From Clostridia bacterium (GTDB lineage Bacteria; Bacillota; Clostridia; JAAYHZ01), in the NCBI GenBank assembly GCA_050950825.1, contig JBMNIH010000009.1, forward strand, positions 160,001-224,000: a DNA stretch of 64,000 nucleotides. Direction: 5' to 3'. Positions 1,003 to 46,432 of this stretch are shown here, piece by piece. Position 1 is the stretch's first letter. The number at the start of each line of letters is the position of its first letter. Below the pieces are notes generated by a model. The model did no database searches and was not told where the DNA came from. It saw only the letters and a list, made by a program, of their open reading frames with translations. The position numbers and the translations under genes are program-made.

Positions 1003-1695
1003 ATGGATATACGGAAGAACATTGAAATCGTGAAATACAAAGTCGCCGAATCCGCCGAGAAAGCCGGTAAAAAACCGGAGGAAATACGGATTGTTGCCGT
1101 GGGAAAAACATTTCCCGCAGAGATACTCTTGGAAGCAAAAGAAGGCGGATTGCGTGAATTCGGAGAAAACAAGGTTCAAGAGCTTGTTGAAAAAATGAAT
1201 GCGTTAGGCAAGGAAGTCTCTTGGCATATGATCGGGCATTTACAGAAGAATAAAGCAAAATACATCGTAGGCGCCGTAGATTTAATCCATTCTTTGGATT
1301 CGTTTGATTTGGCTTTGCAGATTGACAAAACGGCCGAAAAATGCGGTTGTATCCAAGACGTACTGGTTCAGGTTAACATATCCGGCGAAGAAACAAAATT
1401 CGGTCTGCGTCCCGAGGATGTTCTCAATTTTATAAAGGAAGTTTCGATGTTAGAAAGAATACGAGTGAGGGGTCTTATGACCATCGGTCCGAATACCGAT
1501 GACAAGAACCTTATAAGGGAAAGTTTCAGAAGAATGCATTCGTTATATATTGACATGAAAGATAAAAAACTTGATAATATTAACATGGATATTTTGTCTA
1601 TGGGCATGAGTAAAGATTTTGAAATTGCCATACAAGAGGGGGCGAATATGGTTCGCATAGGTAGCGCCATATTTGGGAATCGAATGTACAGGTAA
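1003..1695 (+). CDS. yggS: PLP homeostasis protein YggS/YlmE
   Basis: VAVGKT, FGENKVQE, WHMIGHLQKNK, LSMGMSKDF, VRIGSAIFG motifs. Confidence 0.95.
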   Translation: MDIRKNIEIVKYKVAESAEKAGKKPEEIRIVAVGKTFPAEILLEAKEGGLREFGENKVQELVEKMNALGKEVSWHMIGHLQKNKAKYIVGAVDLIHSLDSFDLALQIDKTAEKCGCIQDVLVQVNISGEETKFGLRPEDVLNFIKEVSMLERIRVRGLMTIGPNTDDKNLIRESFRRMHSLYIDMKDKKLDNINMDILSMGMSKDFEIAIQEGANMVRIGSAIFGNRMYR

Positions 1696-1723
1696 AAAGC
1701 AAAAGAATTAAAAGGAGGAAACT

Positions 1724-2209
1724 ATGGGTAGCTTTTTAAACAAAATTTTGAGCGTCATCGGGTATGAGGATAAAGATGATTATTACGAAGAGGAAATCAT
1801 CGAAGAAGAAGTGGAGGACGTGACAAAAGACACGGAGGCTGCCGATAATCTTCAATTTGAACCGATCAAATATCCTACCAAGCAAAGGGGGAGCAAAGTC
1901 TTGAACGTACATACCAATATGCAGGTAAAGTTAATTGTGAAAAAGCCTCAAAGTTACGATGAAGCAACGGCCATTTGCGATTTTTTGAAGAACAAGCGAC
2001 CCGTTGTGGTCAATTTGGAGGATTTGCAAAGAGACGTGGCACAGAGAATTATCGATTTTCTAAGCGGAGCCACTTATTCTCTCGAAGGGAATATCCACAC
2101 GGTGACGAACAGCATTTTTATTATTGCTCCTAAAAACGTCGACGTAACGGGAGAAGACGATCAGCCTTACGAAACCGATAGAGAAGATACTTTTTCTTGG
2201 ATGAAATAA
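1724..2209 (+). CDS. sepF: Cell division protein SepF
   Basis: VVVNLE, AQRIIDFLSGATY, IFIIAPKNV; SD AGGAGG; follows yggS. Confidence 0.95.
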   Translation: MGSFLNKILSVIGYEDKDDYYEEEIIEEEVEDVTKDTEAADNLQFEPIKYPTKQRGSKVLNVHTNMQVKLIVKKPQSYDEATAICDFLKNKRPVVVNLEDLQRDVAQRIIDFLSGATYSLEGNIHTVTNSIFIIAPKNVDVTGEDDQPYETDREDTFSWMK

Positions 2210-2263
2210 ATGAAAATAAAATGAATAGAACAACATTATGCTTAGGATTATAGAAAGGATACT

Positions 2264-2533
2264 ATGCGATTATTATTAGCTGCAATAGACATACTGTTAC
2301 GGATTATTGAAATATTGATTATCATACGCATTATTTTATCATGGCTGCCGATGCAAAGAACCGGTCCGATCATGAATATTCTGTATCAGTTAACCGAACC
2401 GATATTAGGTCCTATTCGAAACCTCATTTCGAGATCATCCATAGGAAACAATATGATGCTGGACATTTCACCGATTATTGCATTTTTATTGATTAGCGTC
2501 ATACGAAATATCATATTCCGCCTTTTAATTTGA
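2264..2533 (+). CDS. yggT: YggT/YlmG membrane protein
   Basis: ILSWLP, LTEPILGPIR, LDISPIIA motifs; synteny with sepF. Confidence 0.92.
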   Translation: MRLLLAAIDILLRIIEILIIIRIILSWLPMQRTGPIMNILYQLTEPILGPIRNLISRSSIGNNMMLDISPIIAFLLISVIRNIIFRLLI

Positions 2534-2591
2534 TCGGATAGAAACGAAGTTTCAAAATACGCGATATATATTCGAATGCGGAGGATTCAAC

Positions 2592-3716
2592 ATGTCGATT
2601 AAGCCTATAAGAGAAAAATGGAAGGGTACGATGACCGACAGGGAACGCTTTAATGCCCAAATGCATTACAAGCCTTTTGATCGTTGCTTTAACATGGAGT
2701 TCGGATATTGGAACGAAAACTTTACTACGTGGGATATTTTTATCCGGAACAACATCAAAAATAACGCGGAAGCGGATATCTTTTTTAATTTTGATATCAT
2801 AAAAACCGTCGGCGGTGTAGACGAACTGAAACCTCCCTTTGAGGATAAAATTATCGGCGAAGCCAACGGAAAACTCATCATGCAAAACAGCGACGGGTTG
2901 ATCGCGGAAGTACCGAAGGACCGTCACGACACCATTCCTCATTATATTAAATCTTCCATCAACGGACCCGACGATTGGAAAAGAGTCAAAGAAGAAAGAA
3001 TGCGGATTGACGATCCCGCTCGAATCGTAAACATCGAAAGATTAAAAAAGCTTCATCCCGAAGACCGAGACTATCCGTTAGGAGTACACTGCGGTTCCAT
3101 GATCGGAAAAATCCGCGACATGCTGACCTTTGAAGGCTTGGCTTACGCTATTTATGATTATCCGGACATGGTAGAAGACATGGTGGAAACCCGCTGCCTG
3201 TTGGTAGAGCGTTTTTTGGATCAAGTACTTCCTCATTTCCAATTTGATTTTGCTTGCGGCTGGGAAGACATTTGCTTCAACCACGGTCCCATTGTAACGG
3301 TAGACTTTTTTAAGAACGTGGTCATGCCTCGTTACAAAAGAATATCTAAAAAATTAAAGCAATACGGAATCGATCTTTGGTACACCGACTGCGACGGTGA
3401 CGTTCGTCCTTTGCTTCCGTACTTTTTGGAAGGAGGCATTAACTGCCTGTTTCCTTTTGAAGTCAACAGCTGCGCCCATCCCGGCGAATTGCTGGACGAA
3501 TACGGAAAAGAACTGAGAATCATGGGCGGAGTAGACAAAATGGCCCTCGGCGCAGGTAAGGAAGCTATTAAGAAATATTTGGATAGCTTGGTTCCCTATG
3601 TTGAAAGAGGCGGCTATATTCCGTTTTGCGACCATCGTTGCCCTCCCAACGTAAAACCGGAGGATTACCTGTATTATTTGGACTTAAAAGAGGAAATGTT
3701 CGGATTAAAACCGTAA
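2592..3716 (+). CDS. Uroporphyrinogen decarboxylase-family (MtaA/CmuA-like methyltransferase superfamily) protein
   Basis: MTDRER start, WEDICF, DCDGDV, GGVDK, GGYIPFCDH motifs. Confidence 0.8.
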   Translation: MSIKPIREKWKGTMTDRERFNAQMHYKPFDRCFNMEFGYWNENFTTWDIFIRNNIKNNAEADIFFNFDIIKTVGGVDELKPPFEDKIIGEANGKLIMQNSDGLIAEVPKDRHDTIPHYIKSSINGPDDWKRVKEERMRIDDPARIVNIERLKKLHPEDRDYPLGVHCGSMIGKIRDMLTFEGLAYAIYDYPDMVEDMVETRCLLVERFLDQVLPHFQFDFACGWEDICFNHGPIVTVDFFKNVVMPRYKRISKKLKQYGIDLWYTDCDGDVRPLLPYFLEGGINCLFPFEVNSCAHPGELLDEYGKELRIMGGVDKMALGAGKEAIKKYLDSLVPYVERGGYIPFCDHRCPPNVKPEDYLYYLDLKEEMFGLKP

Positions 3717-41513: not shown

Positions 41514-42349
41514 TAAAAGAATTTCTGTTTAAAACCGGTGCCGTAATGGTAAGCAACCACACGGAGCCTTTTTGGTATGCATCCGGAACCTTCGGACCCT
41601 TTTTTATTAATACACATTACTTGTTCGGTTCGGAAACCGAAGCGAAAGCTTTTTTAAATATTATCGACCGTTATGTTTCCGATAAAGATACCGCTCCTTC
41701 GCTCTTTTGTAAAATAGTTAAACAGCAATACGAAAAAAGCCGAATATACAAGAAGGTCATCGACACGTTGATCCGATCCATATCGGATCGTCCTGAAATT
41801 GAGAAAATCGATTATATTTCCGGCGGTGAAAGAAGAGATTGGTTCTTTTCCTATATAACGGCCATTCTTTTGGACAAGCCCCACATAACCCTGTTCAAGG
41901 ATTTGAGCAGCAACGTTATTTACAAAGATACCGTCACGGAAACTCCGGATTTGTCCGGCAAGAGAATTATTCATATCTGCGATTTGGTAACACTGGCTTC
42001 AAGCTATATCAAGTCTTGGATTCCGGCATTGGAAAAATACAACGGAAAACTTCAAGAAACCTTTACGATCGTGGACCGATGCCAAGGAGGAAAAGACATT
42101 CTTGCACAACAGGGAATACGATTGCATTCTTTGGCGGACATCGATGAAAATCTTTTTATCGAAGCAAAAAACCAATTCATCATCAACGCGGAACAGCTGG
42201 ATATGGTTTTGTCTTTTATAAAGGATCCCGATCAATTCATGCAGGATTTTATTCGCCGAAACCCCGAGTTTTTGTCCCGATCCGTTGAAAAAGGGGGAAA
42301 GGATAAGGAACGGGCGGAAGCGTTTATGAAACAATTTTACAAAAGATAG
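41510..42349 (+). CDS. Orotate-phosphoribosyltransferase-like (type I PRTase) protein
   Basis: PFWYASG, variant PRPP loop ICDLVTLASS, IVDR; ATGA overlap with recG. Confidence 0.65.
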   Translation: MIKEFLFKTGAVMVSNHTEPFWYASGTFGPFFINTHYLFGSETEAKAFLNIIDRYVSDKDTAPSLFCKIVKQQYEKSRIYKKVIDTLIRSISDRPEIEKIDYISGGERRDWFFSYITAILLDKPHITLFKDLSSNVIYKDTVTETPDLSGKRIIHICDLVTLASSYIKSWIPALEKYNGKLQETFTIVDRCQGGKDILAQQGIRLHSLADIDENLFIEAKNQFIINAEQLDMVLSFIKDPDQFMQDFIRRNPEFLSRSVEKGGKDKERAEAFMKQFYKR

Positions 42350-42396
42350 TGATTTGTCGGCTTTGGGCTGCAGATCACGGAAAGAGAGTTTTGATC

Positions 42397-43062
42397 ATGC
42401 ACCAAGGACACAGAGAACGAGTCAGAGAACGTTTTTTAAAAGAAGGGTTGGATTCTTTTCAACCCCATGAAGTTTTGGAATTTTTATTGTTTTATTGCAT
42501 TCCCCGTAGGGATACCAATGAAATTGCTCATCGATTGATAAATGAATTCGGTTGCCTATCCAACGTATTGGAAGCTCCCGTAGAAAAACTGGCGGAAGTA
42601 AAGGGAATATCAAAAAATACGGCGGTTCTTTTATCGATGCTGCCGCATCTTTCACGTTATTATCTAAAAGATCGATGGGGACAAAGACCGGTTTTAAACA
42701 GCTCCCGAAAAGCCGGACAGTATGCGGCGGCGCTTTTAACCGGCAAAAGCTACGAGGAGTTTCTCGTGATATGTTTGGATTCCCAAAACAAGGTCATTCA
42801 AGTGGAAAATATACATAAAGGTACGGTTAATGAGGCGGTGGTTTATCCTCGTCTGGTTTTGGAAACGGCATTGAAGTACAAGGCCAACAGCGTCATATTC
42901 GCTCATAATCATCCCGGCGGCAGCTTAAAACCGTCCTCCGCCGATATCGAATTGACGGCAAAACTGAAGCATTTGCTCAACGGGATCTCCATTCGTGTAA
43001 ACGACCACATTATTGCAGCCGGTACCGAATTTTTCAGCTTTGCGGAAAACGGAATGATTTAA
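42397..43062 (+). CDS. radC: RadC (JAB/UPF0758) protein
   Basis: GHRERVRERF, HhH, GTVNE.VYPR, AHNHPGG..PS.AD, DHII. Confidence 0.93.
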   Translation: MHQGHRERVRERFLKEGLDSFQPHEVLEFLLFYCIPRRDTNEIAHRLINEFGCLSNVLEAPVEKLAEVKGISKNTAVLLSMLPHLSRYYLKDRWGQRPVLNSSRKAGQYAAALLTGKSYEEFLVICLDSQNKVIQVENIHKGTVNEAVVYPRLVLETALKYKANSVIFAHNHPGGSLKPSSADIELTAKLKHLLNGISIRVNDHIIAAGTEFFSFAENGMI

Positions 43063-43095
43063 CCTGAATGTAACCTGAAAGGAACGTGGCTTCTG

Positions 43096-43123
43096 TTGAG
43101 TTCTTTTTTTTCTATGCTATAAT
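43096..43123 (+). promoter_or_regulatory. Sigma-A promoter immediately left of the IS
   Basis: TTGAGT (43096-101), 16 bp, TATAAT (43118-23) with extended TG. Confidence 0.55.
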
Positions 43124-43286
43124 CAAAGCATAGTCCAAACGGACGAATGGCCTAGTTGCTACTTTAAGGAGCATTCCTGTAGTGAAATAAAATGAACTTT
43201 GAAAAAGAAGATGCCGTACTGTAGAATTTGAAATGTGAGTTGCACAACATGTAACCACAAATCAAAATCAACAGGAGGCATCTACA

Positions 43287-44570
43287 ATGAAGTATACCCA
43301 AAATGAAAGAATAATGCAAATAACAGAAAAAACATTGATTGTTGGAATTGATGTTGGAAGCGAAACACATTACGCCCGAGCATTCAATTTCAGAGGATTG
43401 GAATACGGAAAGCTATTGAAATTCAATAATGACGCGGAAGGGTTTTCAAGGTTTGAAGATTGGGTCAGGAAACTAGTCAATAACAATGGATTCAAGGATG
43501 TGACGATAGGTATGGAGCCCACCGGGCACTATTGGTTCAACCTTGGAGAATATATCGAAAGACAAAGCGGTATGAGGATCGCGTTGGTTAATCCTCACCA
43601 TGTAAAGAAAAGCAAGGAATTGGATGACAATAACCCGAGTAAAACCGACCGAAAAGATCCGAAAACCATCGCCATGCTGATTAAAGACGGCAGATATATA
43701 GAACCCTATCTACCGGAAGGGGTATACAAGGAATTGCGAACGGCTATGGACAGCCGTTGGCGAATTATGAAGGAGCTTTCCGCAATCAAGAATAGGATTA
43801 GCCGATGGCTTTGCATATACTTTCCCGAATTGACGAAGGTGTTTAAGGATTGGGAAGGGAAAGCGGCGATCCTCGTATTGAAAGAGTACGCGACACCGAC
43901 GAAGATAAAAGAGAAGGGTATTGACGGAATCATAGCCGTTTGGAAGGAACACAAGATACGAGCAGTCGGAAGAAACAGGGCAAAGATGCTGTTGGAGGCA
44001 GCCGTCTCGTCCGTAGGAACGACGGAAGGGCTAATTTCCGCCGAGTATGAGTTGGAAATGCTGCTTGAAGATTATGAAAGCAAAAAACGCCAATATGATA
44101 AAACAATGGAGTTAGTCGAAAGATTGACGAAAGAAATACCGGGGTTTGAGAAATTGCTTGAAATCAAGGGAATAGGACTTGTTACGGCGGCAGGATTCAT
44201 AGCGGAAATAGGTGACATAAAGCGTTTTTCGCATCCGAAACAGATACAAAAGTTGGCAGGACTAAGTCTGAAAGAGAACAGCTCCGGGAAACATAAAGGC
44301 AAGACCACCATATGCAAGCGAGGGAGAAAACGACTGCGATATTATCTGACATTTGGGATGATGCCGTTGTTATCCAAGAATGAGGAATTTAGAGCTCTGC
44401 ACGAGTATTACACAAGCCGGAAGGAAAATCCGCTGAAGAAGATGCAATCTTTGGTTGCATTGAGTAACAAACTGATTCGGATTTTTTATGCGATACTGAC
44501 GAAAAACGTAGCGTACGATCCGCAAAAGATGATGAGCGATATAAGAAGACCTGAAACCAAAGCTGCATAA
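43287..44570 (+). CDS. IS110-family DEDD recombinase/transposase
   Basis: IVGIDVGS, GMEPTGHYW, VNP, KTDRKDP (RuvC DEDD), GIG, EIGDIKRF, LAGL, ENSSGK (catalytic Ser), RGRKRLR; intact. Confidence 0.95.
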   Translation: MKYTQNERIMQITEKTLIVGIDVGSETHYARAFNFRGLEYGKLLKFNNDAEGFSRFEDWVRKLVNNNGFKDVTIGMEPTGHYWFNLGEYIERQSGMRIALVNPHHVKKSKELDDNNPSKTDRKDPKTIAMLIKDGRYIEPYLPEGVYKELRTAMDSRWRIMKELSAIKNRISRWLCIYFPELTKVFKDWEGKAAILVLKEYATPTKIKEKGIDGIIAVWKEHKIRAVGRNRAKMLLEAAVSSVGTTEGLISAEYELEMLLEDYESKKRQYDKTMELVERLTKEIPGFEKLLEIKGIGLVTAAGFIAEIGDIKRFSHPKQIQKLAGLSLKENSSGKHKGKTTICKRGRKRLRYYLTFGMMPLLSKNEEFRALHEYYTSRKENPLKKMQSLVALSNKLIRIFYAILTKNVAYDPQKMMSDIRRPETKAA

Positions 44571-44694
44571 CTTACACCGCTTATGGAAGGATACATTGCT
44601 CTCGTAAGACGGTCAAGGGCAAGACTGCGTTCGGCTTGCGCCGACCCTTGACAGTCTTCCTCGAGCAATGACGGAAGTAACTAAGCGGTGCAAG
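44571..44694. repeat. Long imperfect palindrome directly after the transposase stop
   Basis: Nested arms CACCGCTTA/TAAGCGGTG, CATTGCTC/GAGCAATG, AAGACGGTCAAGGG/CCCTTGACAGTCTT. Confidence 0.8.
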
Positions 44695-44754
44695 GGGACA
44701 GAGTAAAACTCAAGTTTTCACTATTCATTCATTATAGATTGAACATTGACAAGA

Positions 44755-44900
44755 AGAGCCGGATAGTCGGGATGAATTTTCACCATAAGGGCAATGACCC
44801 CGTGAAGGAGCTTGACTGACATCCACCTCCATGGGCAGGCAGAACGAAGGAATTAAGGGCTATGACCCCGTTAGACATGGGAGGGTTGCCACCGGAGAAT
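44755..44900 (+). ncRNA. Candidate IS110 bridge/seek RNA
   Basis: Two copies of TAAGGGC(A/T)ATGACCCCGT (44786-803, 44854-871), stem CCTCCATG/CATGGGAGG, short matches to target and donor ends. Extent is approximate. Confidence 0.55.
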
Positions 44901-45130
44901 GTGTGGATACTAATGGCCGTAAAACAGCAAAACGACGCAGGTTTAATTAGTATGCACTATGGAATCCATAATTATGCAACAATGTATTGTCTGTCCATGT
45001 GGCTCATCTTGAAAAATGAGAAAATCTAAGAATGAGTGAGATATTCAAAGAAAATCAAAGTATTATTAGGGAGGTGAAGAGGGTTCTTTTACGCATGTTT
45101 CATTTGCGTTTCGTTTGAGCCCTCGGATTT

Positions 45131-46432
45131 ATGAAAATTGGAATAGCTGAAGGGAATATTAGAACGCCAATCGGGATGCAAATGACCGGATATGCCGGGA
45201 GAGTATTCGGAGCCATGGATATCCATGATCAATTAAAGATGAGCGCCTTGTACATCGAATCGGAAGGTGTCGAATCCATGATTATCGTTTGTCAAGTGTT
45301 AGGCTTCGACCCTGATTTTTCTCGTGTTACCGAAGCAAAGATCTGTCAAGCCATAAATATACCGGAGACCAATCTGATCTTAGGTGCCATACATACCCAC
45401 GGCGGTCCGGCATCGGGAACCTTGTACGGATGCGGTTGTGCGGATCCGGTATGGTTGGAGCAAACGCAGCAGGACTTGATTGATCTTGCGAAAAAAGCGG
45501 TGGCAAACTCCTTTGACGGCTACTTTGAATATGCGTCCGGCACATGTGAAATTGCATTGAATCGCGTTGCCATGAGCAAATATCCGAATTACATGGATAT
45601 GATCGACAAGGAAACGGCCGTTGTGAAGTTTTATGAAACCGCTACCGGACAATTGAAAGCCGTTTTCTTAAACTACGGATGCCATCCGGTTGTTTTAAAC
45701 CACAAAAACCATTTATACACCGCCGATTATGTATATTACGCCATTAAAAAACTGCAGGAAGCATACGGAGAAGACGTAGCCGTTATATTTTCCACCGGAT
45801 GCTGCGGAGATTTAAATCCCCGTTATCGCTTTACCTTTGAAATGGCAGAGAAAACGGGTAACCTGTTAGCCGATTCGGTTGTCTCCGCAAAAAAGATATT
45901 TACAAACCGCCAAGCCCAAATCAAATGCCATGCCAAGCAATTGGTCATACCCTTGGTGATTGACTACACTTACGATGATTTGGCGGAATTTAAGAAAAAA
46001 GCGCTTGCCGAGGTCGAAAGACTTACCGAGCAAAACTACAACGAAAACTTCATTATGATTCAAGTGGAAGCCGTTAAAGCATTATGGGCGGAATTATGTA
46101 TGAAAGGTTTTGAATCCGGAGATTTGAAAACAACGATTTATCCCATGATCAAGGTTCTGCAGATCGGAGATTTGAGCTTTATAGCGCTGCCTTTTGAAGT
46201 CTTTCATGAATTGGGGTTGAAAATAAAGGGGTTGTTTAATCGAGCCGGCCGTTCCATTGTCATGGGATATTCCAACGGTGTATACGGTTATTTGCCATAC
46301 GGTGAGCTCTATGAAAAAGCAAGCTACGAAGCGAAAACCGCATTCCGTTATTACGGTTATCCCGGTCCCGTATGCAAAGAAGCCGGAGATATTATTTACA
46401 AGTATTTAGAGGAAATAGTGGATACCAACTAA
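45131..46432 (+). CDS. Neutral/alkaline ceramidase-superfamily (N-terminal domain) hydrolase
   Basis: MTGY, IHDQL, AIHTHGGP, NR, NYGCHP, TADY, GCCGDLNP, PFEVF, GYSNG..GYLP. Confidence 0.75.
   Translation: MKIGIAEGNIRTPIGMQMTGYAGRVFGAMDIHDQLKMSALYIESEGVESMIIVCQVLGFDPDFSRVTEAKICQAINIPETNLILGAIHTHGGPASGTLYGCGCADPVWLEQTQQDLIDLAKKAVANSFDGYFEYASGTCEIALNRVAMSKYPNYMDMIDKETAVVKFYETATGQLKAVFLNYGCHPVVLNHKNHLYTADYVYYAIKKLQEAYGEDVAVIFSTGCCGDLNPRYRFTFEMAEKTGNLLADSVVSAKKIFTNRQAQIKCHAKQLVIPLVIDYTYDDLAEFKKKALAEVERLTEQNYNENFIMIQVEAVKALWAELCMKGFESGDLKTTIYPMIKVLQIGDLSFIALPFEVFHELGLKIKGLFNRAGRSIVMGYSNGVYGYLPYGELYEKASYEAKTAFRYYGYPGPVCKEAGDIIYKYLEEIVDTN

What the first reader, a model, noticed from the sequence alone, without database searches (positions are those of the whole stretch)
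44755..44900. Candidate 3'-encoded bridge RNA of an IS110 element, with a duplicated loop module and putative guides matching both donor and target
Seen: the 18-nt motif TAAGGGC[A/T]ATGACCCCGT (a GGG...CCC mini-hairpin) occurs twice, 68 nt apart (44786-803, 44854-871). With an inferred AG core the empty target reads caaagcatAGgtgaag and the circle junction reads tattagggAGtccaaacgg. Near module 1, TTCACC (44779-84) and CACCT (44824-28) are reverse complements of target GGTGAA/AGGTG, and CATA...GTGAAG flanking the hairpin spells the target. At module 2, CCGTTAGAC (44868-76) is near-complementary to left-end GTCCAAACGG, and ATGGGAG (44877-83) resembles right-end TAGGGAG. Established: IS110/IS1111 recombinases use an ncRNA with target- and donor-binding loops. 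Inference: this is such an RNA, in a right-end position without obvious subterminal inverted repeats. The guide matches are short (5-9 nt) and could be chance or internal stems.
Basis: partly seen in the sequence, partly recalled or inferred. Interest (0 to 1): 0.78.

Follow-up and report, generated by a model that had tools for sequence, protein, structure and literature searches.

The report
Bridge RNA of a clostridial IS110
This stretch most likely encodes the two-loop guide ("bridge") RNA of an IS110-family insertion sequence that steers the element into ribosome-binding sites; the kind of system is already known, so it is a well-supported new example and not a new mechanism.

Summary
The 18-nt motif occurs exactly at 44786-803 and 44854-871 (2 matches, 0.01 expected). 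It lies in the ~500-nt 3' non-coding end of an IS110-family element (tnp 43287-44570). Two other copies in the genome, 80 relatives and empty-site contigs place the element at 43172-45073, inserted at tactttAAGGAG|GTGAAG, a Shine-Dalgarno-like site.

The region is conserved 3' of tnp, on the same strand, in 75 of 80 relatives. It fits a two-stem-loop RNA (31 pairs, 91.5% paired, 17 with changes on both sides).
- Loop 1, 3' strand (GAAGGAG, 44804-10) tracks the left flank across independent insertions (228/350 against 187.9±5.7; 0/20000 shuffles).
- Loop 1, 5' strand (TTCACC) tracks the right flank only weakly.
- Loop 2 strands match the element's own ends (AGGAAT with LE ATTCCT; TAG..GGGAG with RE TTAGGGAG).

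This is a bridge/seekRNA with the guide order described for IS1111. However, the recombinase is long (427 aa) and I found no clear subterminal repeats. Transcription, RNA ends and function are not shown. Verdict: new member of a known kind, moderate interest.

The parts
43165..43171 (+). Left half of the target (TAAGGAG) including the core AG (43170-71), Shine-Dalgarno-like
   Evidence: The flanks of copies A, B and C differ up to this point. Empty-site contigs in 2 RNA-library runs join ..GCTACT to TTAaGGAGGTGAAG. Left flanks of relatives end in ..GGAG.
43172..45073 (+). IS110-family insertion sequence (1902 bp), copy A
   Evidence: Comparison with copy B (C10, 99%) and copy C (C11). Contigs from 4 studies match from 43166-43169 to 45074 and then run into different flanks.
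43199..43227 (+). Promoter-like site TTGAAA-17-TAGAAT in the 115-nt left end, upstream of tnp
   Evidence: 10 of 12 positions. The sequence is conserved in the closest relatives. This is a consensus match only.
43287..44570 (+). tnp: DEDD/serine recombinase, 427 aa
   Evidence: Pfam PF01548 (residues 19-180) and PF02371 (289-372). NCBIfam NF033542 scores 215.5 bits against a cutoff of 140. The C-terminal domain aligns to the IS621 transposase 8wt6 at E 2.8e-10. GLSLKENSSG lies at residues 325-334.
44574..44691 (+). Long hairpin directly after the tnp stop codon (CACCGCTTA ... TAAGCGGTG closing)
   Evidence: Fold of 44565-45080 (whole 3' end z = -5.34). It is present only in the closest relatives (window, L010, L032, L009) and absent in L011, L012 and L021. 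Function unknown.
44756..44920 (+). Candidate bridge RNA (true 5' and 3' ends unknown)
   Evidence: nhmmer finds this region in 75 of 80 relatives, always on the + strand and 39-246 nt after tnp. Model R1 matches 44756-44920 at 132.9 bits.
44766..44820 (+). Stem-loop 1, the target-binding loop. The basal stem is 44766-70 with 44816-20.
   Evidence: Helix 2: 96.7% of cells paired, and 3 of 6 pairs show changes on both sides.
44779..44784 (+). Right-target guide (TTCACC), 5' strand of loop 1. It is complementary to the top strand G|GTGAA (45073-78).
   Evidence: Hypervariable block. Covariation with right flanks is weak. There is a 9-nt match to copy C's flank GGTGAAAAT.
44786..44803 (+). Motif copy 1, the hairpin cap of loop 1
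   Evidence: helix 3.
44804..44810 (+). Left-target guide (GAAGGAG), 3' strand of loop 1. It has the same sequence as the left flank plus core, so it would pair with the bottom strand.
   Evidence: z is 7.2, 3.6, 3.8, 3.0 and 4.6 at positions -3 to -7, and 0.6 at -8.
44822..44907 (+). Stem-loop 2, the donor-binding loop. The outer stem is 44822-26 with 44903-07; inner stems follow.
   Evidence: Helices 4-6. Compensatory ATCCAC/GTGGAT against TTCTAC/GTAGAA (L021).
44848..44853 (+). Guide for the element's left end (AGGAAT), 5' strand of loop 2. It is complementary to LE ATTCCT (43173-78).
   Evidence: 65 of 65 loci keep a 6-nt complement, in three co-varying states.
44854..44871 (+). Motif copy 2, the hairpin cap of loop 2
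   Evidence: helix 7 (98.1% paired).
44872..44883 (+). Guide for the element's right end, 3' strand of loop 2: TAG (44872-74) ... GGGAG (44879-83), same sequence as RE TTAGGGAG
   Evidence: the base before GGAG equals RE position -5 in 68 of 69 loci, and the triplet equals RE -7..-5 in 55 of 69.
45066..45073 (+). Right terminus TTAGGGAG (ends in the core AG). It re-creates an SD-like GGAGG with the first flank base.
45074..45079 (+). Right half of the target (GTGAAG)

Best explanation
Window 44756-44920 (+) encodes the bridge RNA (seekRNA) of the IS110-family element at 43172-45073.

Inferred structure: the RNA folds into two stem-loops, each an internal loop capped by a similar hairpin. The two copies of the 18-nt motif are those caps.

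Inferred pairing of loop 1 with the target AAGGAG|GTGAA:
- Its 5' strand (..UUCACC) pairs with the top strand to the right of the AG core.
- Its 3' strand (GAAGGAG) pairs with the bottom strand to the left of the core, core included.

Inferred pairing of loop 2 with the joined ends of the excised element (..TTAGGGAG|CATTCCT..):
- AGGAAU pairs with the left end.

By analogy with IS621, ISEc11 and CazIS110-1, the 427-aa DEDD/serine recombinase bound to this RNA would then recombine donor and target at the AG core. Because the guide spells a Shine-Dalgarno sequence, the family lands between promoter and start codon, co-oriented with the gene. The right end (..AGGGAG) restores an SD.

Shown here: sequence conservation, position and strand; structure covariation; guide-flank and guide-end covariation; and the exact boundaries.

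Inferred only: that the RNA is made, where it starts and ends, that it binds the recombinase, and that it is needed for movement.
For: Element and ends:
- Copy B (99%) and copy C share sequence with the window only between ..GAG|C.. and ..GGGAG|.
- Contigs from 4 RNA-library runs of 4 studies match 43166/43169 to 45074 and then diverge into different flanks. Two runs hold the uninterrupted site.
- The recombinase has PF01548 and PF02371, and NF033542 scores above its cutoff.

Conservation:
- 586 of 600 scanned stretches encode relatives, and the best 80 were kept.
- The RNA region is found in 75 of those 80, all on the + strand, 39-246 nt (median 175) after tnp. Three of the 5 misses have under 260 nt of downstream sequence.

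Structure (66 sequences, 31 hand-drawn pairs):
- 91.5% of cells are paired, against 28-51% when the partners are slid.
- 17 pairs change on both sides, against 8.4±1.8 in shuffles (0/500).
- There are 64 compensatory cells, against 14.5±3.4.
- Many G-U pairs (for example 53, 51 and 43 sequences at three pairs) fit the + strand only.

Target guides:
- Left-target guide against left flank, 50 loci, positions -3..-9: 228/350 identical, against 187.9±5.7 and a maximum of 211 in 20000 shuffles. The diagonal runs from -3 to -7. Single-locus variants match their own flank: L019 ATGAAG, L065 AGAAAG, L011 GGAAAG, L018 ATGGAG, L020 AGGGAG, L009 TTGGAG.
- Right-target guide, 54 loci: allowing a shift, 273 against 250.7±6.0 (0/5000). 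Ungapped, 215 against 195.7±8.0 (53/5000).

Donor guides:
- AGGAAG with LE CTTCCT (43 loci), AGGAAT with ATTCCT (15), GAGAAG or AAGAAG with CTTCTT (6), and one G-T case.
- The right-end guide base equals RE position -5 in 68 of 69 loci.

Target biology: 37 of 53 insertion sites have a start codon 6-11 nt after GGAG| with an ORF of at least 40 codons, against 397 of 2250 random flank positions.

Literature: the IS1111 group has its RNA in the long right end (PMC11208160, section 12 read). In IS1111 seekRNAs the top-strand match lies 5' of the bottom-strand match (PMC11187229, sections 9, 12 and 14 read).
Against: - No direct evidence that the RNA is made. All runs are stored as contigs, which show neither strand, ends nor level, and DNA can be present in RNA libraries.
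- The scan found no terminator-like site in 43100-45150. Promoter-like sites (5) are at the shuffle expectation of 3.9±2.4, and none lies upstream of the RNA.
- The isolated 241-nt stretch does not fold better than shuffles (z = +0.99).
- RNAalifold alone recovers only 16 pairs at -7.75 kcal/mol. I drew the fuller structure from these same sequences, which favours it over the slid controls.
- The right-target guide signal is weak. Only position +1 (z 3.9) exceeds the largest control value (2.6-3.1), and many sites need a 1-2 nt bulge.
- In this copy UUCAC and GUGAA can pair with each other.
- Donor guides and ends are inherited together, so their agreement rests on a few independent changes.
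- No Rfam family matches.
Confidence: 0.85

Rival explanations
1. The 3' region encodes a structured passenger or regulatory RNA, or a 3'-UTR element, that travels with the IS but does not choose the target. The precedent is Ssr9 downstream of tnp in ISPpu9, which is not needed for transposition and also occurs as solo copies.
For: The ISPpu9 precedent comes from the abstract and outline of PMC12288879. Solo 3' modules without tnp exist here too: copy C, and G001. There is no functional evidence for guidance in this family.
Against: A passenger RNA would not be expected to co-vary with the flanks of independent insertions, nor to keep complementarity to both element ends through three sequence states. 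The left non-coding end is only 115 nt and holds the tnp promoter-like site and leader, which leaves little room for another guide RNA.
Confidence: 0.07
2. The repeated 18-nt motif and its surroundings act as DNA. They would be recombinase-binding sites or subterminal repeats used for end recognition, not an RNA.
For: The motif occurs twice in direct orientation inside the right end. IS1111-type elements use subterminal repeats (PMC11208160 section 12).
Against: The motif lies 200-290 nt from the right terminus and has no partner near the left end (best LE/RE inverted match scores 14, against a shuffled mean of 12.1 and a maximum of 20). Compensatory changes and frequent G-U pairs point to a folded single strand read from the + strand. 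The variable blocks next to the motifs track the flanks and ends.
Confidence: 0.04
3. The guide-like matches are chance or merely internal stems of an unrelated fold.
For: In this copy TTCAC and GTGAA pair with each other in the minimum-energy fold. The matches are 5-7 nt long. SD-like GGAG strings are common.
Against: 0 of 20000 shuffles reach the observed agreement between left guide and left flank. The TTCAC/GTGAA pairing is peculiar to this copy: in the main subfamily the two strands are not complementary. Single-locus guide variants match their own unusual flanks.
Confidence: 0.02

Closest known systems
IS1111-group seekRNA / bridge RNA (ISEc11, ISKpn4, ISPa11; Siddiquee et al. 2024, PMC11187229; Durrant et al. 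2024, PMC11208160)
   Same: The long non-coding region and the RNA lie downstream of tnp, with a short left end and a long right end. The segment complementary to the top strand lies 5' of the segment complementary to the bottom strand. The recombinase is of the DEDD plus PF02371 type. There is no target duplication, and a short core is shared by target and ends.
   Different: The recombinase is 427 aa, against 330-350 aa stated for the IS1111 family. I found no subterminal inverted repeat of 7-17 bp. The target is an SD sequence. The donor-reading part is a simple internal loop, whereas Durrant et al. note multi-loop donor parts in many IS1111 members. Phylogenetic placement was not done.
IS621 bridge RNA (Durrant 2024; Hiraizumi 2024, PMC11208158)
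   Same: The RNA has two internal loops, target loop first and donor loop second. Each loop has one strand for the bottom-left and one for the top-right of its DNA. A core dinucleotide is included in the left guides. The recombinase C-terminal domain is detectably related (8wt6, E 2.8e-10).
   Different: In IS621 the RNA is in the left end, upstream of tnp. In IS621 the 5' strand of each loop reads the bottom strand; here it is the 3' strand. The core is CT there and AG here. The right guide here reaches only one core base. The recombinase is about 100 aa longer between its two domains. I did not identify handshake guides.
CazIS110-1 of Caloranaerobacter azorensis (Sun et al. 2025, bioRxiv 10.1101/2025.10.25.684509; abstract, section 5 and passages read)
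   Same: The host is an anaerobic member of the Clostridia. The bridge RNA is about 170 nt, with a target-loop part of about 77 nt and a donor-loop part of 87 nt. These sizes are close to stem-loop 1 (about 65 nt) and stem-loop 2 (86 nt) here.
   Different: The main text gives no sequence, no target and no RNA position, so I could not test relatedness. Its supplements were not available.
ISPpu9 with its downstream ssr9 module (Pares-Guillen et al. 2025, PMC12288879; abstract and outline read)
   Same: An RNA gene lies downstream of an IS110-family tnp, and solo copies of the RNA module occur elsewhere in the genome.
   Different: Ssr9 is reported as not required for transposition. Here the 3' RNA carries the guide-like segments.
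IS900/IS901/IS902 group of mycobacterial IS110-family elements (recalled, not checked in any call)
   Same: As I recall, these insert in one orientation between the ribosome-binding site and the start codon of a gene, at an AAGGNG-like site.
   Different: The hosts are actinobacterial. I did not compare sequences or RNA position. My searches for papers that link IS110 with an SD or RBS target found nothing relevant.

Membership tests
IS110 family (DEDD/serine RNA-guided transposase) | N-terminal DEDD RuvC-like domain and C-terminal Transposase_20 domain | tested here: met
   PF01548 E 4.7e-25 (residues 19-180) and PF02371 E 2.7e-24 (289-372). NF033542 scores 215.5 bits against a cutoff of 140.
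IS110 family (DEDD/serine RNA-guided transposase) | Conserved G..P....SG-type serine motif in the C-terminal domain | tested here: met
   GLSLKENSSG at residues 325-334. It aligns with the ESGSS region of IS621. The P of the published motif is L here.
IS110 family (DEDD/serine RNA-guided transposase) | Site-specific insertion without target duplication, with a short core shared by target and element end | tested here: met
   AG is shared by all left flanks and right ends. Empty-site contigs confirm a simple insertion.
Bridge RNA / seekRNA | Conserved non-coding region next to tnp on the same strand | tested here: met
   Found in 75 of 80 relatives, all on the + strand.
Bridge RNA / seekRNA | Fold with internal loops supported by covariation | tested here: met
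   91.5% paired, and 17 of 31 pairs change on both sides. Caveat: I drew the structure from the same sequences.
Bridge RNA / seekRNA | Loop segments that co-vary with both sides of the target | tested here: met
   The left side is strong. The right side is weak but above shuffles when a shift is allowed.
Bridge RNA / seekRNA | Loop segments matching the element's two ends (donor) | tested here: met
   65 of 65 loci for the left end and 68 of 69 at RE position -5. The number of independent changes is small.
Bridge RNA / seekRNA | The RNA is expressed, binds the recombinase and is required for transposition | not testable with these tools
   Only contigs of RNA libraries were available. They do not show transcription.
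IS1111 group | Long non-coding region and RNA downstream of tnp; short LE, long RE | tested here: met
   LE is 115 nt and RE is 503 nt. The same layout is seen in whole-IS contigs of relatives.
IS1111 group | Top-strand match 5' of bottom-strand match in the RNA | tested here: met
   compared with PMC11187229 sections 9 and 12.
IS1111 group | Subterminal inverted repeats of 7-17 bp | tested here: not met
   the best LE against reverse-complemented RE local match in the window scores 14 (7 nt). The shuffled mean is 12.1 and the maximum 20. The six relatives tested scored 14-19.
IS1111 group | Transposase of 330-350 aa, related over its full length to that of IS1111 | tested here: not met
   The length is 427 aa, with about 108 aa between the two Pfam domains. 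Relatedness to IS1111 itself was not tested because no reference sequence was at hand.
Any Rfam family | Match reaching the gathering score | tested here: not met
   6 matches, best E-value 0.13, all far below the gathering scores.

The most novel reading that the evidence does not exclude
This widespread clostridial lineage may be a hybrid architectural class within the IS110 family. It has a long, IS110-proper-like recombinase without subterminal repeats. It nevertheless has a 3'-encoded bridge RNA with the guide order of IS1111. Its left guide is programmed against the Shine-Dalgarno sequence itself, and its right end rebuilds that sequence. If so, RNA position and guide order would be decoupled from the recombinase clade. 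The recurrent tnp-less 3' modules (copy C, G001) and the one-loop deletion form (copy B) could be products, or trans-acting helpers, of partial 'direct-transfer' events. They need not be mere debris.
Probability: 0.3. Interest if true: 0.55.

Novelty: new member of a known kind. Interest (0 to 1): 0.4.

Why it matters
- **Annotation.** It fixes the annotation of an unannotated 165-nt RNA gene and of the true ends of an IS that is common in Clostridia from digesters and guts. 586 of 600 scanned stretches in species-representative genomes encode relatives. No Rfam family covers the RNA.
- **Engineering.** The family offers many natural guide variants with matched insertion sites, a 7-nt left guide and a very short right guide. 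This is useful for understanding how little pairing a bridge recombinase needs.
- **Host biology.** The element targets real ribosome-binding sites in one orientation and restores the SD. It therefore separates genes from their promoters while keeping them translatable.
- **Classification.** The mix of IS110-like protein features with IS1111-like RNA features bears on how the two groups diverged.

Tried and rejected
- **Rfam**: only chance-level matches (StyR-143 E 0.13; RT-1 E 2.8 on the post-stop hairpin).
- **Promoter and terminator scan**: nothing usable for the RNA. The conserved CATTGACAA at 44745-53 has no -10 partner at 16-18 nt (read by eye).
- **Single-sequence folding of 44690-44930**: no better than shuffles. 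RNAalifold on the MAFFT alignment gave only a sparse consensus.
- **Subterminal inverted repeats**: none above shuffles.
- **RNA-library runs**: all are stored as contigs, so they cannot show transcription, strand or RNA ends. Contigs covering the 3' part have 2-3.6 times the k-mer depth of contigs covering tnp in X1, X2 and X7. The tool warns that contig depth cannot rank parts of a gene, and solo 3' modules would give the same picture. Bins without cover (43050-43120) say nothing.
- **Perfect 11-mer target AAGGAGGTGAA in the own genome**: 3 sites, equal to the reversed-pattern control, so not informative.
- **PDB sequence search**: only IS621, ISCro4 and one other IS110-type chain, all distant. 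No IS1111-type structure was available to compare.
- **Placement of the recombinase against ISfinder IS110 and IS1111 references**: not done, because no reference sequences were available. The 'green group' of IS110 members with a 3' NCR in PMC11187229 Fig. 1b is not named in the text. Supplements were closed and may list this family.
- **Literature searches for an SD or RBS target of IS110-family elements or bridge RNAs**: one unrelated paper, none, and unrelated papers. The two key papers do not mention Clostridia, Firmicutes, IS900 or Shine-Dalgarno in their main text.
- **The search of earlier findings** was not open.
- **Mechanism of copy C**: I looked for resemblance between its internal breakpoint (44578/79) and the LE or RE and found none.

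Full report
**1. Observation**

The 18-nt motif TAAGGGC[A/T]ATGACCCCGT occurs at 44786-44803 and 44854-44871 on the + strand, 68 nt apart, and nowhere else in the window. The chance expectation is 0.01 matches, and 0 of 100 shuffles gave two or more.

**2. Context and true boundaries**

An ORF at 43287-44570 (+, 427 aa) carries DEDD_Tnp_IS110 and Transposase_20. It passes the NCBIfam IS110 model at 215.5 bits against a cutoff of 140.

The host genome holds three related places:
- **Copy A** is the window copy.
- **Copy B** (contig C10) is 99% identical but lacks exactly one 68-nt period, so it has a single motif copy.
- **Copy C** (contig C11) is a 500-bp piece, 100% identical to 44579-45078, with no tnp.

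Sequence shared with the window starts at ..GAG|CATTCC and stops at ..TTAGGGAG|. The flanks read:
- A: tactttAAGGAG | GTGAAGagg
- B: ttgAATGAG | GTATATcatATG
- C: aaaAAGGAG | GTGAAAATG

The 80 best relatives have recombinases 51-77% identical (586 of 600 scanned stretches confirmed, 80 kept). All show the same anatomy:
- The left flank ends in ..GGAG (rarely GAAG or AAAG).
- The LE starts C(A)TTC(C/T)TGTA.
- The RE ends ..A(G/A)GGAG.

Contigs from four RNA-library runs of four studies match from 43166-43169 to 45074 and then run into different flanks. Two runs contain the uninterrupted site..GGCCTAGTTGCTACT joined to TTAaGGAGGTGAAG...

The element is therefore 43172-45073 with core AG.

**3. 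The 3' region across relatives**

A profile of 44738-44928 finds the region in 75 of 80 loci, always on the tnp strand, 39-246 nt (median 175) after the tnp match. Three of the five misses have under 260 nt of downstream sequence. L023 and L041 have enough sequence but no match.

Both modules are present in relatives. The 'duplication' is therefore ancestral architecture, and copy B is a deletion derivative.

I aligned 73 sequences: the window plus 72 loci. I left out L001 (the same place as the window) and the partial hits L009, L040 and L069. The own-genome copies B and C were not included. In the alignment, highly conserved blocks alternate with four short hypervariable blocks that flank the two hairpins.

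**4. Structure**

I drew seven helices (31 pairs) on alignment A2. A2 holds 66 sequences; identical ones were collapsed and L087 was dropped because its 3' part is replaced by unrelated sequence.

Counts:

| Measure | Observed | Control |
|---|---|---|
| Cells paired | 91.5% | 28-51% with slid partners |
| Pairs with changes on both sides | 17 | 8.4±1.8 in shuffles (0/500) |
| Compensatory cells | 64 | 14.5±3.4 |

- Frequent G-U pairs fit only the + strand.
- CCACCTCC (44823-30) lies in the stems that enclose loop 2.

Caveats:
- The structure was derived from these same sequences.
- RNAalifold alone finds only 16 pairs.
- The isolated stretch is not more stable than shuffles.
- The whole 3' end is more stable than shuffles (z = -5.34), mostly because of a long hairpin at 44574-44691.

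**5. Target loop**

*Left-target guide.* The 3' strand of loop 1 (window GAAGGAG, 44804-10) has the same sequence as the left flank plus core.
- Over 50 loci with at least 9 nt of left flank, positions -3..-9 agree in 228 of 350 cells. Shuffled pairings give 187.9±5.7, with a maximum of 211 (0 of 20000).
- The position-by-position matrix shows a clean diagonal from -3 to -7 (z 7.2, 3.6, 3.8, 3.0, 4.6) and nothing at -8.
- Rare guide variants sit in matching rare sites: L019 ATGAAG, L065 AGAAAG, L011 GGAAAG, L018 ATGGAG, L020 AGGGAG, L009 TTGGAG.
- Mismatching cases also exist, for example L028, L027, L034, L053, L059, L060 and L063.

*Right-target guide.* The 5' strand (window ..TTTCACC, 44778-84) is the reverse complement of G|GTGAA(A).
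- It matches copy A over 6 nt and copy C over 9 nt.
- Across 54 loci the signal is weak. Ungapped, 215 of 486 against 195.7±8.0 (53 of 5000 shuffles reach it). With the best shift from -1 to +2, 273 against 250.7±6.0 (0 of 5000).
- In the matrix only position +1 (z 3.9) exceeds the control maxima of 2.6-3.1.
- Several sites fit only with a 1-2 nt bulge after GG (L012, L015, L055, L051, L032).

**6. Donor loop**

*Left-end guide.* The 5' strand of loop 2 keeps a 6-nt complement to the left end in 65 of 65 loci:

| Guide | Left end | Loci |
|---|---|---|
| AGGAAG | CTTCCT | 43 |
| AGGAAT | ATTCCT | 15, window included |
| GAGAAG or AAGAAG | CTTCTT | 6 |
| AGGAAG | CTTCTT (G-T) | 1 |

*Right-end guide.* The 3' strand carries GGGAG, or AGGAG where the RE ends ..GAGGAG or ..AAGGAG.
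- The base before GGAG equals RE position -5 in 68 of 69 loci.
- A triplet directly after the hairpin (TAG, GAG or TGG) equals RE -7..-5 in 55 of 69 loci, and 11 more fit with a G-T pair.
- This suggests a split guide with a 5-nt bulge. The register is unresolved.

Guide and end are inherited together, so these agreements rest on a few independent changes.

**7. What the target is**

The left guide spells a Shine-Dalgarno sequence. In 37 of 53 relatives with at least 80 nt of right flank, a start codon lies 6-11 nt after GGAG| and opens an ORF of at least 40 codons. The rate is 397 of 2250 at random positions in the same flanks.

Insertion is always co-oriented with the downstream gene, and the RE (..AGGGAG) plus the first flank G rebuilds GGAGG. 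The window copy sits in an SD-like site 57 nt before the next gene rather than in its RBS.

**8. Comparison with what is known**

- Durrant et al. (PMC11208160; sections 6, 7 and 12 and passages read) describe two-loop bridge RNAs. They lie in the left end for the IS110 group and in the right end for the IS1111 group. In IS621 the 5' strand of each loop reads the bottom strand.
- Siddiquee et al. (PMC11187229; sections 6, 9, 12, 13 and 14 read) report a downstream NCR in IS1111 and an upstream NCR in IS110, with some exceptions. They find the top-strand match 5' of the bottom-strand match in IS1111 and the reverse in ISEc21. They give transposase lengths of 330-350 aa for IS1111 and 395-455 aa for the IS110-proper subgroup.

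The element here has the RNA position and guide order of IS1111. Its protein, however, is 427 aa with about 108 aa between the two domains, and it has no subterminal inverted repeat above shuffles. I therefore file it as an IS110-family bridge RNA and not as a tested member of the IS1111 group.

CazIS110-1 from a thermophilic member of the Clostridia has an RNA of similar size and partition, but its main text gives no sequence to compare.

Targeting of an RBS by mycobacterial IS900-type elements is my recollection only.

**9. Expression**

Eighteen listed RNA-library runs hold at least 0.62 of the sampled words. The four I laid cover the element. They are contigs, so transcription, strand and RNA ends remain unshown.

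**10. Verdict**

The finding is real and its main interpretation is right. The left boundary, the reconstructed target and junction, and half of the proposed guide matches are wrong. The system belongs to a known kind, with some unusual features: SD targeting with SD regeneration, mixed IS110 and IS1111 characters, recurrent solo RNA modules, and a one-loop deletion variant.

Noticed in passing
own genome contig C11 (L003 1501-2000, minus strand), equal to window 44579-45078: This is a solo 3' module, 100% identical to the window copy, with no tnp and no LE. It is inserted in a perfect target, aaaAAGGAG|GTGAAAATG, 5 nt before a lipoprotein-like ORF (MMKKAFILLMVTAVILNFAAC..). Its left breakpoint lies inside the post-stop hairpin and does not resemble the LE. 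It could supply bridge RNA in trans. How it arose is unexplained.
   Followed up: partly
own genome contig C10 (L002 about 1296-3145, minus strand), equivalent to window 44804-44871: Copy B has an intact tnp (99%, no stops). A 68-nt deletion between the two motif copies fuses the right-target strand of loop 1 to the right-end strand of loop 2. The resulting single loop would match an RE/right-flank junction. Model R1 scores it only 25.5 bits. The same deletion form appears as a 52-nt contig in RNA-library run X13.
   Followed up: partly
L100 (genome G001, same genus), about 1490-1900: A diverged RNA module (78% identity, R1 score 91 bits) has an RE-like end ..AAAGATAGTGGAGGG just before a small ORF. 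No tnp was found in that genome at E<=1e-60. This is a second case of a tnp-less 3' module.
   Followed up: partly
window 44574-44691: A long, nearly perfect hairpin follows the tnp stop codon directly. It is present only in the closest relatives (L009, L010, L032) and absent in L011, L012 and L021. It has no T-run, so it is not a classical terminator.
   Followed up: no
relatives L033-L086 (main subfamily), RE plus LE: Joining the ends would create TTGACT-17 nt-TATAAT, with the -35 in the RE and the -10 in the LE. This is a junction promoter of the kind described for other IS110-family circles. The window subfamily lacks it and instead has TTGAAA-17-TAGAAT inside the LE (43199-43227). I read this by eye.
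   Followed up: no
window 43166-43171 joined to 45074 onward, in runs X1 and X2: Contigs representing the uninterrupted target (empty site) co-exist with occupied-site contigs in two digester or sludge RNA libraries. The insertion is therefore polymorphic in natural populations.
   Followed up: partly
L028 (Pseudobacteroides cellulosolvens), right end: The terminal GATTATTGAGGGAGG occurs twice in tandem at the right junction.
   Followed up: no
own genome C2:175641-176699, C2:192457-193398, C3:48498-49517, C7:22127-23146, C10:50164-51183; C3:44104-44238: Five further IS110-family transposase genes are only 27-28% identical to this one, so they belong to other IS110-type elements. There is also a 46-residue remnant at 76% identity.
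   Followed up: no
window 42349-43062 and 45131-46432: The neighbouring genes are radC-like (RadC JAB domain) upstream and a neutral/alkaline ceramidase-like gene downstream. The IS sits in the 2-kb gap between them.
   Followed up: no
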